Below, in pieces: positions 3,232-4,562 of a stretch of DNA of 64,000 nucleotides. This stretch comes from Pedobacter sp. (GTDB lineage Bacteria > Bacteroidota > Bacteroidia > Sphingobacteriales > Sphingobacteriaceae): the NCBI RefSeq assembly GCF_965227205.1, contig NZ_OZ245727.1:608863-672862 (forward strand). Direction: 5' to 3'. Each line of letters opens with the position of its first letter. Within the stretch, counting starts at the first letter, position 1. Position numbers and translations under genes: made by a program. The notes under the pieces were generated by a model that was given only the letters and a program-made list of their open reading frames with translations, was not told the DNA's origin and made no database searches.

Positions 3232-3262
3232 CTTACAAATCTGTCCTTTAGATTTGCAATGG

Positions 3263-3455
3263 TCTAAAATGATTGAATTGATTTATATTTAACAAGTTAC
3301 CTAAATCGGTAGCGGCTCATTAAGCGTTGTCAAGGTTAGATACCTATAGACTGATATAATCCGCTACCGATTTTCCCTTAGTGACCAGATAACAATTAGG
3401 GCATTACCCATTATTAAGGACTTGGATCGATGGGGTAAAACTTAGGTAATTGCTA
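3263..3455 (+). ncRNA. Predicted IS110 bridge RNA (target-binding and donor-binding loops)
   Basis: Outer stem 3297-3304/3442-3449; 13-bp stem 3303-3315/3361-3373 enclosing guides TGTC(3328-31) and AGACTGA(3348-54); second stem enclosing ATAACAAT(3389-96) and AAGGA(3416-20); 5' and 3' ends approximate. Confidence 0.85.
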
Positions 3456-3476
3456 CAAATTTAAAGAATAAATAAT

Positions 3477-4496
3477 ATGATTAATACAAATTTCTTTATT
3501 GGGATTGATGTATCAAAGCCCTACTTTGATGCTTCTTTAATGACTGTTATCAGTCATGTAAAACAAGCTATCCAAAGCGCCCGGTTTGAGAATACAGCTT
3601 CTGGGATAAAGACATTTGAGAAATGGCTTAAATTTCATAAGGTCACCTTTAATCCAGACACTCTGGTGGTGATTGAAAATACAGGGATCTATCACCGGCT
3701 AATCTGGTCATTCTGCAGTAACAAACACGTACCAATTCATATTGGTAATGCAGCCCATATTAAATGGAGTTTTGGGATAGCTAGAGGAAAGAATGATAAG
3801 ATAGATAGTGTCCGTTTATGCAAGTATGCCTTTAAGGAATCTGATACATTAAAGGCCACAGAAGCCTTAGATCCACAGTTATTGCATTTAAAAGATTTCA
3901 TATCTGCCAGAACAAAATTACTCAAGCAGGCTACAGGACTTAGCGTTTCAATTAAAGAGCTAGGTAATGTAAATGAAAAATCACATCAGAAACTAATTGA
4001 GAAAGCACTTAAATCTGCTATTGATGGAATAGCAAAATCGATTAAAAATATTGAAGAACAAATCCGCAAAATTATTAAAGAAAACAGCGCCTTTCAACGA
4101 AACTATAACCTGTTGACCGGTATACCAGGGATCGGACATGTCACCGCGGTTTACCTGATTGGTTGTACAGCGAATTTTGCCAGCAACCCAAGTGGAAAGC
4201 AATTGGCATGCTATGCAGGAGTCGCTCCGTTCGAGCACTCGAGCGGGATTAGTGTAAAAGGTAAAACCAGGGTACATAGGATGGCAAACAAAGACCTTAA
4301 AAAACTACTACATCTATGCGCATTATCAGTTATCCAACATAATATGGAATTCAAGAACTACTACCAAAGGAAAAAGGATGAAGGTAAGCATAGCATGAGT
4401 ATACTTAATGCAGTGAGAAATAAAATAACGCTAAGAATAGCAGCTGTAATTAAAACACAACAACCTTATAAAAGCAATTATAATATAGCAGCCTAA
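3477..4496 (+). CDS. IS110-family DEDD transposase/recombinase
   Basis: GIDVSK (D), IENTGIY (E), KNDKIDS (D,D), IPGIG helix-hairpin and SSG catalytic-Ser motif; ORF intact, 339 aa. Confidence 0.97.
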   Translation: MINTNFFIGIDVSKPYFDASLMTVISHVKQAIQSARFENTASGIKTFEKWLKFHKVTFNPDTLVVIENTGIYHRLIWSFCSNKHVPIHIGNAAHIKWSFGIARGKNDKIDSVRLCKYAFKESDTLKATEALDPQLLHLKDFISARTKLLKQATGLSVSIKELGNVNEKSHQKLIEKALKSAIDGIAKSIKNIEEQIRKIIKENSAFQRNYNLLTGIPGIGHVTAVYLIGCTANFASNPSGKQLACYAGVAPFEHSSGISVKGKTRVHRMANKDLKKLLHLCALSVIQHNMEFKNYYQRKKDEGKHSMSILNAVRNKITLRIAAVIKTQQPYKSNYNIAA

Positions 4497-4562
4497 TTTG
4501 CAAAAGTCATAACAATCAGTCTGAGCTTGTCGAAGACCAGTTTCAAAACAGTTTCTTTAATT

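What the first reader, a model, noticed from the sequence alone, without database searches (positions are those of the whole stretch)
3246..4517. IS110 element with a readable bridge RNA: guides match both its own ends and the insertion site
Seen in sequence: the 231-nt left end folds into an outer stem (3297-3304/3442-3449) and two internal-loop hairpins. Loop 1 contains TGTC (3328-3331), identical to the target left flank plus TC core (3242-3245), and AGACTGA (3348-3354), the exact reverse complement of core plus right flank TCAGTCT (4516-4522). Loop 2 contains ATAACAAT(T) (3389-3397), matching the element right end ATAACAATC (4509-4517) at 8/9, and TTAAGGA (3414-3420), a 6/7 match to the reverse complement of TCCTTTA (3244-3250). 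In both loops the core-pairing ends of the two guides are exactly 23 nt apart. Established: IS110 DEDD recombinases such as IS621 use a bispecific bridge RNA with a target loop followed by a donor loop. Inference: this is a compact (339 aa), intact, reprogrammable RNA-guided recombinase with a TC core from Bacteroidota. Whether this particular element has been catalogued is unknown.
Basis: partly seen in the sequence, partly recalled or inferred. Interest (0 to 1): 0.92.

Follow-up and report, generated by a model that had tools for sequence, protein, structure and literature searches.

The report
Pedobacter IS110 element with bridge RNA
This is an intact, recently active IS110-family jumping gene from a Pedobacter genome whose left end encodes a two-loop "bridge" guide RNA matching both its own ends and its insertion site; it is a clear new example of a mechanism already described in 2024, not a new kind of system.

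Summary

- **Element:** window 3246-4517 is a 1,272-bp IS110-group element. It has a 231-nt left end, a 339-aa DEDD/Ser recombinase and a 21-nt right end.
- **Boundaries:** they are fixed to the nucleotide by five independent insertions of the same element (99.7-100% identical) and by alignment of about 36 homologous loci.
- **RNA structure:** the left end folds into a closing helix plus two internal-loop modules, and their stems show compensatory changes.
- **Guide-target covariation:** across homologues the variable loop-1 arms track the host flanks. For the right target guide, 85/95 positions match against 34.8±5.1 in permutations. For the left, 106/162 against 66.7±5.6. The A/G variant in loop 2 tracks the right end in 30/30 loci.
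- **Other IS621-like features:** a handshake base covaries with target position 7. The circle junction would rebuild a Bacteroidota-type promoter (TTTG-N20-TAGATTTG).
- **Target:** a REP-like host repeat.

Not shown here: that the RNA is made, binds the protein, or can be reprogrammed.

Novelty is modest. Bridge RNAs were already predicted for most IS110 elements, and NCBI already names this family "RNA-guided transposase". The closest ISfinder entry I could find is ISCaa7 (41% amino-acid identity). Verdict: a new member of a known kind.

The parts
3246..4517 (+). Whole IS110-group element, 1,272 bp, counted with one copy of the TC core at its right end. The other TC copy is at 3244-3245.
   Evidence: Similarity among about 36 homologous loci starts at (G)TC|CTTTAG and stops at CATA[A/G]CAATC|. 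The same element, 99.7-100% identical, lies at five different sites with these exact ends.
3244..3245 (.). Left copy of the TC core dinucleotide, shared by target and donor.
   Evidence: TC precedes the left end and ends the right end in the window and in nearly all homologues.
3246..3476 (+). Non-coding left end (231 nt) encoding the bridge RNA.
   Evidence: MFE -55.8 kcal/mol, z = -3.57. It is conserved across homologues except at the guide positions.
3249..3256 (+). TAGATTTG, a Bacteroidota -7 promoter box (TAnnTTTG). It is half of a promoter completed only in the circular form.
   Evidence: TAG[A/C/G]TT[T/C]G was found in all 31 loci tested (TTTG in all but L008, TTCG). The consensus is taken from PMC2483708.
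4497..4500 (+). TTTG, a Bacteroidota -33 box in the right end. It lies 20 nt from the -7 box once the right end is joined to the left end.
   Evidence: TTTG occurs at a 20-nt spacer in 21/31 reconstructed junctions, and three more have CTTG there. Only 1/28 integrated left flanks has it.
3295..3304 (+). 5' strand of closing helix P0. It pairs with 3442-3451.
   Evidence: A helix is present in 31/31 homologues with covarying sequence (mean duplex energy -9.9 against -2.5 kcal/mol for shuffled partners).
3442..3451 (+). 3' strand of closing helix P0.
3307..3369 (+). Target-binding loop module. Outer stem 3307-3315/3361-3369, inner stem 3333-3335/3343-3345, and an internal loop carrying both target guides.
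   Evidence: RNAalifold gives compensatory changes in 8 of the 9 outer-stem pairs and 2 of the 3 inner-stem pairs; the ninth and third are invariant G-C.
3325..3331 (+). Left target guide CGUUGUC. It is identical to the top strand of left flank plus core, so it pairs with the bottom strand.
   Evidence: It matches 4 nt at the window site and up to 7 nt at other copies. Family-wide, 106/162 positions match against 66.7±5.6 in permutations.
3348..3354 (+). Right target guide AGACUGA, which pairs with top-strand TCAGTCT (4516-4522).
   Evidence: 7/7 match at all five insertion sites. Family-wide, 85/95 against 34.8±5.1, with 0 of 100,000 permutations reaching it.
3355..3355 (+). Candidate handshake base U of the target loop. 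It would pair with donor position 7 (the A in CAATC).
   Evidence: U in 30/31 homologues; donor position 7 is A in every locus where the right end is available. Concept from PMC11208158.
3371..3440 (+). Donor-binding loop module. P1 is 3371-3378/3432-3440, P2 is 3382-3386/3424-3429 (A3426 bulged), and the inner stem is 3399-3401/3407-3409.
   Evidence: P2 shows A-T, G-C and T-A at one position and C-G or T-A at another. The inner stem changes from GGG/CCC to AGG/CCU (8 of 31 rows) or GAG/CUC.
3389..3397 (+). Left donor guide AUAACAAUU. It matches right end plus core ATAACAATC (4509-4517); the last position is a U·G wobble.
   Evidence: The A/G variant in the guide agrees with the A/G variant in the right end in 30/30 loci.
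3414..3420 (+). Right donor guide UUAAGGA, which pairs with core plus left end TCCTTTA (3244-3250) at 6/7.
   Evidence: The mismatched position varies (A, T or G) among homologues, and three of the homologues (L013, L018, L029) pair 7/7.
3421..3421 (+). Candidate handshake base C of the donor loop. It would pair with target position 7 (the G of GTC).
   Evidence: It pairs in 30/30 loci, including two covarying cases: L005 has A with target T, and L039 has G with target C.
3477..4496 (+). Recombinase gene, 339 aa. The RuvC-like DEDD residues are D11, E67, D107 and D110; the catalytic Ser is S256.
   Evidence: Pfam; NCBIfam NF033542 at 162 bits against a cut-off of 140; alignment to IS621 and ISCro4.
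4497..4517 (+). Right end (21 nt). It contains the -33 box, the left donor sequence ATAACAA (4509-4515) and the core TC (4516-4517).
4518..4540 (+). Right half of the disrupted host target, AGTCTGAGCTTGTCGAAGACC. Together with TGTC at 3242-3245 it rebuilds a REP-like repeat.
   Evidence: The rebuilt site fits the repeat tGTCAnnnTGAGCyyGTCGAAG, which matches 7 times in the window against 0.8 expected.
50007..50033 (+). Paralogous, unoccupied copy of the target repeat: TGTCAGTTTGAGCTTGTCGAAGACC.
   Evidence: It differs from the guide at one right-target position.

Best explanation
Window 3246-4517 is an autonomous, recently active IS110-group insertion sequence of a Pedobacter genome. It most likely works like IS621.

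Proposed cycle:
1. The element excises as a circle, joining its right end to its left end across the TC core.
2. That junction brings a -33 TTTG box in the right end to 20 nt from a -7 TAGATTTG box in the left end. This creates a Bacteroidota-type promoter.
3. The promoter transcribes a bridge RNA of roughly 190 nt, followed by the recombinase gene.
4. The RNA has a closing helix and two internal loops.
   - The target loop reads the host site: CGUUGUC is identical to the top strand left of the cut, and AGACUGA is complementary to the top strand right of it.
   - The donor loop reads the circle junction through AUAACAAUU and UUAAGGA.
5. A tetramer of the DEDD/Ser recombinase exchanges strands at the TC core. 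One 'handshake' base next to each right-hand guide helps the exchange.
6. The preferred target, ..yGTTGTC|AGTCT.., lies inside a REP-like host repeat.

Shown here: the boundaries, multiple identical copies, the RNA structure with compensatory changes, guide-flank and guide-end covariation, the catalytic residues, and the conserved split promoter motifs.

Inferred by homology: the circle, transcription, the RNA-protein complex and the strand-exchange chemistry.
For: - **Protein:** PF01548 + PF02371. NF033542 'IS110 family RNA-guided transposase' scores 162 bits. There are full-length matches to ISCro4 (9t56, E = 9e-18) and IS621 (8wt6, E = 2e-17), with the D-E-D-D and Ser residues aligned.
- **Boundaries:** homologue similarity begins and ends exactly at 3246 and 4517. 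Five distinct insertion sites of the 99.7-100% identical element all read xGTC|IS|AGTCTGAGCyTGTCGAAGACC. An uninterrupted paralogue lies at 50007-50033.
- **Structure:** z = -3.57. The target-loop stems show compensatory pairs, as do donor-loop P2 and the inner stem. The closing helix is present in 31/31.
- **Guides:** right target guide 85/95 against 34.8±5.1; left target guide 106/162 against 66.7±5.6; left donor guide A/G 30/30. Handshake base 30/30, with two covarying cases.
- **Geometry:** the same as IS621. Left guides are identical to the top strand and right guides are complementary to it; the core is included in all four pairings (PMC11208160).
- **Promoter:** TTTG-N20-TAnnTTTG in 21/31 junctions against 1/28 integrated flanks. 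Consensus from PMC2483708.
Against: - No direct evidence that the RNA exists or binds the protein. Metatranscriptome contigs cover the left end, but a DNA run from the same study shows the same k-mer pile-up over the conserved donor loop, so the depth says nothing.
- No circle-junction contig or read was seen.
- The window copy matches its left target guide at only 4 nt. Left-guide agreement falls off quickly with distance from the core, so how far the left guide really extends is uncertain.
- One homologue (L003) has guides that do not fit its own flanks.
- Rfam 15 has no family that matches. This only means that no such family has been curated.
Confidence: 0.9

Rival explanations
1. The structured left end is only a transposase mRNA leader, or a set of protein-binding sub-terminal sites. 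In this reading the internal copies of the end sequences are recombinase-binding repeats, and the protein (or the DNA structure of the repeat) selects the REP-like target, not an RNA.
For: The loop-2 sequences are almost invariant, as protein sites would be. All five insertions lie in a repeat that is conserved for 16 nt beyond what the guide covers. The RNA was not shown to exist.
Against: The loop-1 arms vary while the scaffold is conserved, and they track unrelated host flanks. There are 16 different right guides, matching 85/95 against about 35 expected. The stems show compensatory changes typical of RNA. The strand pattern of all four guides equals that of IS621.
Confidence: 0.04
2. The element is real but is now a fossil. 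On this reading the copy in the window no longer moves, and its guide matches are historical.
For: The window copy has the poorest left-guide match of the five sites. No circle junction or excision product was seen in the available runs.
Against: - The ORF is intact with all catalytic residues.
- At least three copies occur in one assembly, and five sites overall are 99.7-100% identical over 1,272 bp.
- The promoter halves and all guides are intact.
Confidence: 0.05
3. The guide matches in the window are chance similarities picked out by eye.
Against: The joint chance estimate is about 2e-9. The same positions match the flanks in about 30 independent homologous loci that carry different sequences.
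Confidence: 0.01

Closest known systems
IS621 (E. coli) bridge recombinase and bridge RNA (Durrant et al. 2024, PMC11208160; Hiraizumi et al. 2024, PMC11208158)
   Same: - The domain architecture and catalytic residues are the same.
- The RNA lies in a long left end, with the target loop before the donor loop.
- Left guides are identical to the top strand and right guides are complementary to it, and the 2-nt core is included in all four pairings.
- The right target is 5 nt.
- Right-donor pairing is discontiguous.
- A single-position handshake covaries.
[quoted passage not shown]
- Insertion is into REP-type repeats.
   Different: - The protein match is only remote (E = 2e-17).
- The core is TC, not CT.
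- The split promoter is of the Bacteroidota -33/-7 type, not sigma-70 -35/-10.
- A closing helix encloses both loops; from memory IS621 has no such helix, and this was not checked here.
- The window copy and L001 lack the 5' stem-loop that the Chitinophagaceae homologues carry.
- The left target guide appears shorter or more tolerant.
ISCro4 bridge recombinase (PDB 9t56; bioRxiv 10.1101/2025.05.14.653916)
   Same: It is the best-scoring solved structure by sequence (E = 8.9e-18, aligned over residues 6-334). It belongs to the same family.
   Different: It is a distant orthologue from a different phylum. No RNA comparison was made here.
ISCaa7 (ISfinder, IS110 group; listed in a supplementary file of Durrant et al. 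2024 (file 8 of those held) with a bridge RNA predicted in the left end)
   Same: It is the only one of the 274 ISfinder IS110 entries in that table that shares this clade's signature peptides (ENTGIYH, IKWS, CYAGVAP). Its bridge RNA is also assigned to the left end.
   Different: It is only 41% identical at the protein level, so it is a different element.
ISPpu9 / ISPpu10 of Pseudomonas putida (PMC12288879; bioRxiv 10.64898/2026.03.19.712850)
   Same: [quoted passage not shown]
   Different: Their host phylum and repeat family are different. ISPpu9 carries an sRNA gene downstream of the transposase. Only the abstracts were compared.

Membership tests
IS110 family, IS110 group (bridge-RNA recombinases) | Recombinase with an N-terminal RuvC-like DEDD domain and a C-terminal Tnp domain carrying a catalytic Ser | tested here: met
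   PF01548 (E = 9e-18) and PF02371 (E = 3e-22). NF033542 scores 162 bits against a cut-off of 140. D11, E67, D107, D110 and S256 align with the IS621 catalytic residues.
IS110 family, IS110 group (bridge-RNA recombinases) | No terminal inverted repeats, and a short core sequence present at both junctions | tested here: met
   TC lies at 3244-3245 and 4516-4517. The ends CTTTAGATTTG and CATAACAATC are not inverted repeats.
IS110 family, IS110 group (bridge-RNA recombinases) | Left non-coding end much longer than the right end, with the non-coding RNA encoded in the left end | tested here: met
   The left end is 231 nt and the right end 21 nt. The structured, conserved region is 3295-3451.
IS110 family, IS110 group (bridge-RNA recombinases) | Two internal loops, each with a left guide identical to the top strand and a right guide complementary to it, both overlapping the core | tested here: met
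   compared with the description in PMC11208160.
IS110 family, IS110 group (bridge-RNA recombinases) | Guide positions covary with target flanks and with element ends across orthologues | tested here: met
   Right target guide 85/95 against 34.8±5.1; left target guide 106/162 against 66.7±5.6; left donor guide 30/30.
IS110 family, IS110 group (bridge-RNA recombinases) | Handshake guide base next to the right guides that pairs with the non-cognate DNA at position 7 | tested here: met
   The donor-loop base pairs with target position 7 in 30/30 loci, with two compensatory cases. The target-loop U faces donor A7 in 26 of the 27 loci where the right end is available. Concept from PMC11208158.
IS110 family, IS110 group (bridge-RNA recombinases) | [quoted passage not shown] | tested here: met
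   This is a sequence-level test only. TTTG-N20-TAnnTTTG occurs in 21/31 junctions against 1/28 integrated flanks. The motif is the Bacteroidota type rather than the sigma-70 type.
IS110 family, IS110 group (bridge-RNA recombinases) | The RNA is expressed and bound by the recombinase, and changing the guides redirects recombination | not testable with these tools
   Public RNA runs gave only contig-level coverage, confounded by k-mers shared among relatives.
IS110 family, IS110 group (bridge-RNA recombinases) | A circular excision intermediate exists | tested here: inconclusive
   No back-joining contig appeared in the runs examined. Contigs drop rare forms, so absence is uninformative.
IS1111 group of the IS110 family | Bridge/seek RNA in a long right end, and sub-terminal inverted repeats of 7-17 bp | tested here: not met
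   The right end is 21 nt and unstructured, and no long sub-terminal inverted repeat is visible in the end sequences. Criteria from PMC11208160.
Same element as an ISfinder entry | Near-identity to a named IS | tested here: inconclusive
   ISfinder itself cannot be searched here. Among the 274 IS110 entries tabulated by Durrant et al., only ISCaa7 shares the clade's motifs, and it is 41% identical. There was no match in PLSDB plasmids.

The most novel reading that the evidence does not exclude
The Pedobacter/Chitinophagaceae IS110 clade may be a distinct bridge-RNA architecture, set apart by four features:
- a closing helix that ties the target and donor loops into one three-way junction;
- a TC core;
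- a short or tolerant left target guide;
- a circle-junction promoter built from Bacteroidota -33/-7 boxes.

If so, it would be a natively Bacteroidota-adapted scaffold, orthogonal to IS621 and ISCro4.
Probability: 0.3. Interest if true: 0.5.

Novelty: new member of a known kind. Interest (0 to 1): 0.33.

Why it matters
This is a clean, fully annotated natural bridge-recombinase system from Bacteroidota. Its boundaries are exact, and all four guides plus the handshake bases are assigned. The natural target set is known from five sites. Related elements supply 16 naturally 'reprogrammed' right guides on one scaffold. That makes it a ready candidate for testing an orthologue that carries its own Bacteroidota-type promoter logic, in a phylum where sigma-70 parts work poorly.

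It also shows that the split junction promoter of IS110 elements has been rebuilt with lineage-specific promoter boxes. It does not change what is understood about the mechanism.

Tried and rejected
1. **Rfam 15, e-value mode, over 3000-4800.** No bridge-RNA family matched. The only hits were a sub-threshold Flavo-1 hit downstream and a chance Termite-leu hit.
2. **PLSDB plasmids, distant blastn.** No match.
3. **Exact search of metagenome contigs for the rebuilt empty site ACAAATCTGTCAGTCTGAGC.** There was one hit (L048), in an unrelated high-GC contig with no similarity to the window, so it is a chance match.
4. **Exact look-up of the neighbouring CydB protein, to find an IS-free strain.** Only the occupied locus came back. 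A related IS-free locus is hinted at by one metatranscriptome contig that skips 3231→4583 with 67 nt in between. It is too divergent to define the junction.
5. **RNA evidence.** A contig of depth 473 covers the donor loop of a related variant in a phyllosphere metatranscriptome. The DNA run of the same study shows the same pile-up (64-175 against about 7 for the ORF), so this reflects k-mers shared among family members, not expression. Four further RNA runs showed only low-depth ORF fragments.
6. **RNAalifold's two-hairpin drawing of loop 2.** I rejected it in favour of an internal loop. Helix P2 and the GGG/CCC stem carry compensatory changes, whereas the alifold helices mostly vary on one side only (only two pairs have any two-sided change).
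7. **Terminator-like hairpin inside the ORF at 3510-3532.** Homologues show hairpins there, but these are built from the conserved codons for DVSK..FD, have shifting registers and lack a consistent U-tract. I did not accept it as the 3' end of the RNA.
8. **Sigma-70 promoter scan.** Nothing on the + strand of the left end.
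Full report
**1. The observation**

Reading 3000-4800 confirms every string at the stated coordinates:
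- TGTC at 3242-3245 and again at 3328-3331.
- AGACTGA at 3348-3354, the reverse complement of TCAGTCT at 4516-4522.
- ATAACAATT at 3389-3397 against ATAACAATC at 4509-4517.
- TTAAGGA at 3414-3420 against the reverse complement of TCCTTTA at 3244-3250 (6/7).
- Both 23-nt spacings.

The only long ORF on this stretch is 3477-4496 (+), 339 aa. The 231-nt left end folds to -55.8 kcal/mol with z = -3.57. The fold shows an outer helix and the hairpin CGGTAGCGG/CCGCTACCG. A composition-based estimate puts the chance of all four matches in this geometry near 2e-9.

**2. The protein**

- Pfam gives DEDD_Tnp_IS110 and Transposase_20.
- NCBIfam NF033542, titled 'IS110 family RNA-guided transposase', scores 162 bits against a cut-off of 140.
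- The only solved relatives are the ISCro4 (9t56) and IS621 (8wt6) transposases, aligned over residues 6-334.
- The four acidic residues and the serine align. In this protein they are D11, E67, D107, D110 and S256.
- The closest database protein (99% identical) is from a Pedobacter sp. contig of 4.74 Mb. Thousands of relatives exist, mostly in Pedobacter and Chitinophagaceae.

**3. Boundaries**

Three independent lines agree to the nucleotide.

(a) Homologue alignment. I aligned 300 nt upstream and 90 nt downstream of the ORF in about 36 homologous loci. Similarity begins at (G)TC|CTTTAGnTTTG and ends at CATA[A/G]CAATC|.

(b) Independent insertions. An exact-protein look-up found the same element, 99.7-100% identical over 1,272 bp, at five different genomic sites. 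Three of them are in one assembly. All have the same ends and all read xGTC|IS|AGTCTGAGCyTGTCGAAGACC.

(c) The host repeat. Joining the window's flanks gives TCTGTC|AGTCTGAGCTTGTCGAAGACC, which is a member of a host repeat, tGTCAnnnTGAGCyyGTCGAAG. The core of that repeat matches 7 times in the window against 0.8 expected. One match is an uninterrupted copy at 50007-50033, and two more form a palindromic pair at about 24033-24085.

The target is therefore a REP-like repeat, as for IS621 and the P. putida IS110 elements.

**4. The RNA**

I aligned 31 left ends (A1).
- RNAalifold finds the target-loop outer stem and inner stem with many compensatory pairs. One outer-stem position shows C-G, U-A, G-C and A-U.
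- For the second module RNAalifold proposes two hairpins. Reading the variants shows an IS621-like internal loop instead. Helix P2 (3382-3386/3424-3429) changes as GACC/GG(A)TC, GGCC/GG(A)CC, GTCC/GGAC, GTCT/AGAC and GTTC/GAAC. The inner stem changes from GGG/CCC to AGG/CCT or GAG/CTC.
- A closing helix (3295-3304/3442-3451) is present in all 31 sequences with different sequences. Its mean duplex energy is -9.9 kcal/mol, against -2.5 for shuffled partners.

**5. Guides**

Within the conserved scaffold, the two arms of loop 1 are the variable positions. Comparing them with each locus's own flanks gave the following.

| Guide | Comparison | Observed | Permutation |
|---|---|---|---|
| Right target guide (5 non-core nt) | right flank, 19 distinct guide/flank pairs, 16 different guides | 85/95 | 34.8±5.1, max 61, 0 of 100,000 reach it |
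| Left target guide (6 nt 5' of the core) | left flank | 106/162 | 66.7±5.6, max 92 |
| Left donor guide (A/G variant) | A/G variant in the right end | 30/30 | not run |

- Left-guide agreement decays with distance from the core.
- At the four other sites of this very element, the left flank matches CGTTGTC at 5-7 nt. The window copy is the weakest, at 4 nt.
- The last base of the left donor guide is U opposite the bottom-strand G of the core, which is a wobble.
- The right donor guide has one internal mismatch, at a position that varies among homologues. The IS621 paper also describes pairing with donor bases in this loop as discontiguous.
- The strand logic is exactly that given for IS621: left guides pair with the bottom strand, right guides with the top strand, and the core is included in all four.

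**6. Handshake bases**

Hiraizumi et al. describe bases just 3' of the right guides that pair with position 7 of the non-cognate DNA after strand exchange.
- Here the base after the right donor guide is C where the target has G at position 7 (28 loci).
- It is A in L005, where the target has T, and G in L039, where the target has C. That makes 30/30 paired.
- This also explains why nearly all targets read GTC.
- The base after the right target guide is U in 30/31 sequences, and donor position 7 is always A.

**7. Promoter**

- The left end starts CTT-TAGATTTG, and TAnnTTTG is the Bacteroidota -7 box. The right end carries TTTG, the -33 box (consensus from PMC2483708).
- Joined head to tail, they are 20 nt apart. 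The same arrangement is present in 21/31 homologue junctions, with three more having CTTG. Only 1/28 integrated left flanks has it.
- No sigma-70-like promoter lies on the + strand of the left end.
- This parallels the sigma-70 promoter rebuilt at the IS621 circle junction, using lineage-specific boxes.
- It is a sequence-level inference only.

**8. What was not shown**

- No direct RNA evidence. The contig depths over the left end in metatranscriptomes are confounded by k-mers shared among relatives.
- No circle junction was seen.
- No exact IS-free orthologous locus was recovered. One divergent contig does skip the element.

**9. Comparison and novelty**

- The element meets every sequence-level defining feature of the IS110 group of bridge-RNA recombinases. 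It fails those of the IS1111 group.
- Durrant et al. predicted bridge RNAs in 85.7% of ISfinder IS110-group elements. Their tables include Bacteroidetes proteins.
- The only ISfinder entry in their table that shares this clade's signature peptides is ISCaa7, at 41% identity.
- It is therefore a new member of a known kind, not a new mechanism.
- Lineage-specific variations are the TC core, the closing helix, the Bacteroidota split promoter and the short or tolerant left guide.

**10. Verdict**

- Confidence in the mechanism is about 0.9, resting on homology plus covariation.
- Interest is about 0.33.

Noticed in passing
window 24033-24085, 39139-39151(-), 50007-50033, 53258-53283, 53722-53747, and the split copy 3242-3245 + 4518-4540: A REP-like host repeat, tGTCAnnnTGAGCyyGTCGAAG. 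Its 13-nt core matches 7 times in the window (up to 2 mismatches), against 0.8 expected. One locus is a palindromic pair. It is the natural target of the element.
   Followed up: partly
window 14808-14969(+), 24446-24577(+), 37659-37814(+), 49971-50069(-); weak hit 4596-4731(-): Four Flavo-1 RNA (RF01705) hits lie above the gathering score, and one lies below it just downstream of the element. In the 49971-50069 copy the REP-like repeat sits in the apical loop of the Flavo-1 hairpin, as if inserted there.
   Followed up: partly
window about 53196-53283 and about 53660-53747: Two direct copies of roughly 85 nt, about 464 nt apart (cggagagnttttcgaaatataaattacaagtaagtttgaacggttttaatggg...), each ending in the REP-like repeat.
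   Followed up: no
L002-L035, left ends (alignment): Most Chitinophagaceae homologues carry an extra segment between the -7 box and the closing helix: a TATTACTATTAC / T-rich stretch of about 50 nt and a 5' hairpin (ATCCACA...TGTGGAT). The window element and L001 lack both.
   Followed up: no
L003 (JBGSMI010000015.1): The target-loop guides of this homologue (ACGGAGTC, and TCCTGCG as the reverse complement) do not match its own flanks (GGGTGTC / TCCCCAC). They resemble the target of L002. This could be an off-target insertion or later divergence.
   Followed up: no
L030 (CALRLS020000329.1, labelled Cyanobium MAG): This homologue has GCC, not GTC, both in its left target guide and in its left flank, so the change in the first core position is matched. 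The contig is probably mis-binned, since all its relatives are Bacteroidota.
   Followed up: no
window 3510-3532: A terminator-like hairpin followed by a T-rich tail lies inside the first 20 codons of the recombinase gene. Homologues also form hairpins there, but from conserved codons and in shifting registers.
   Followed up: partly
L006 4381-5338: A second, distantly related IS110-like ORF (27-32% identity) lies immediately downstream of the homologous element in this Ferruginibacter contig.
   Followed up: no
recombinase residues 175-305: There is a weak NCBIfam match to the TIGR-Tas RNA-guided endonuclease model (40.6 bits, cut-off 100). It fits the evolutionary link between IS110 transposases and Nop5-family proteins reported in bioRxiv 10.1101/2024.06.21.599552.
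   Followed up: no
window 876-3231: The element sits 14 nt downstream of the stop codon of a cytochrome bd oxidase operon (subunit I at 876-2198, subunit II at 2227-3231). No gene is interrupted.
   Followed up: no
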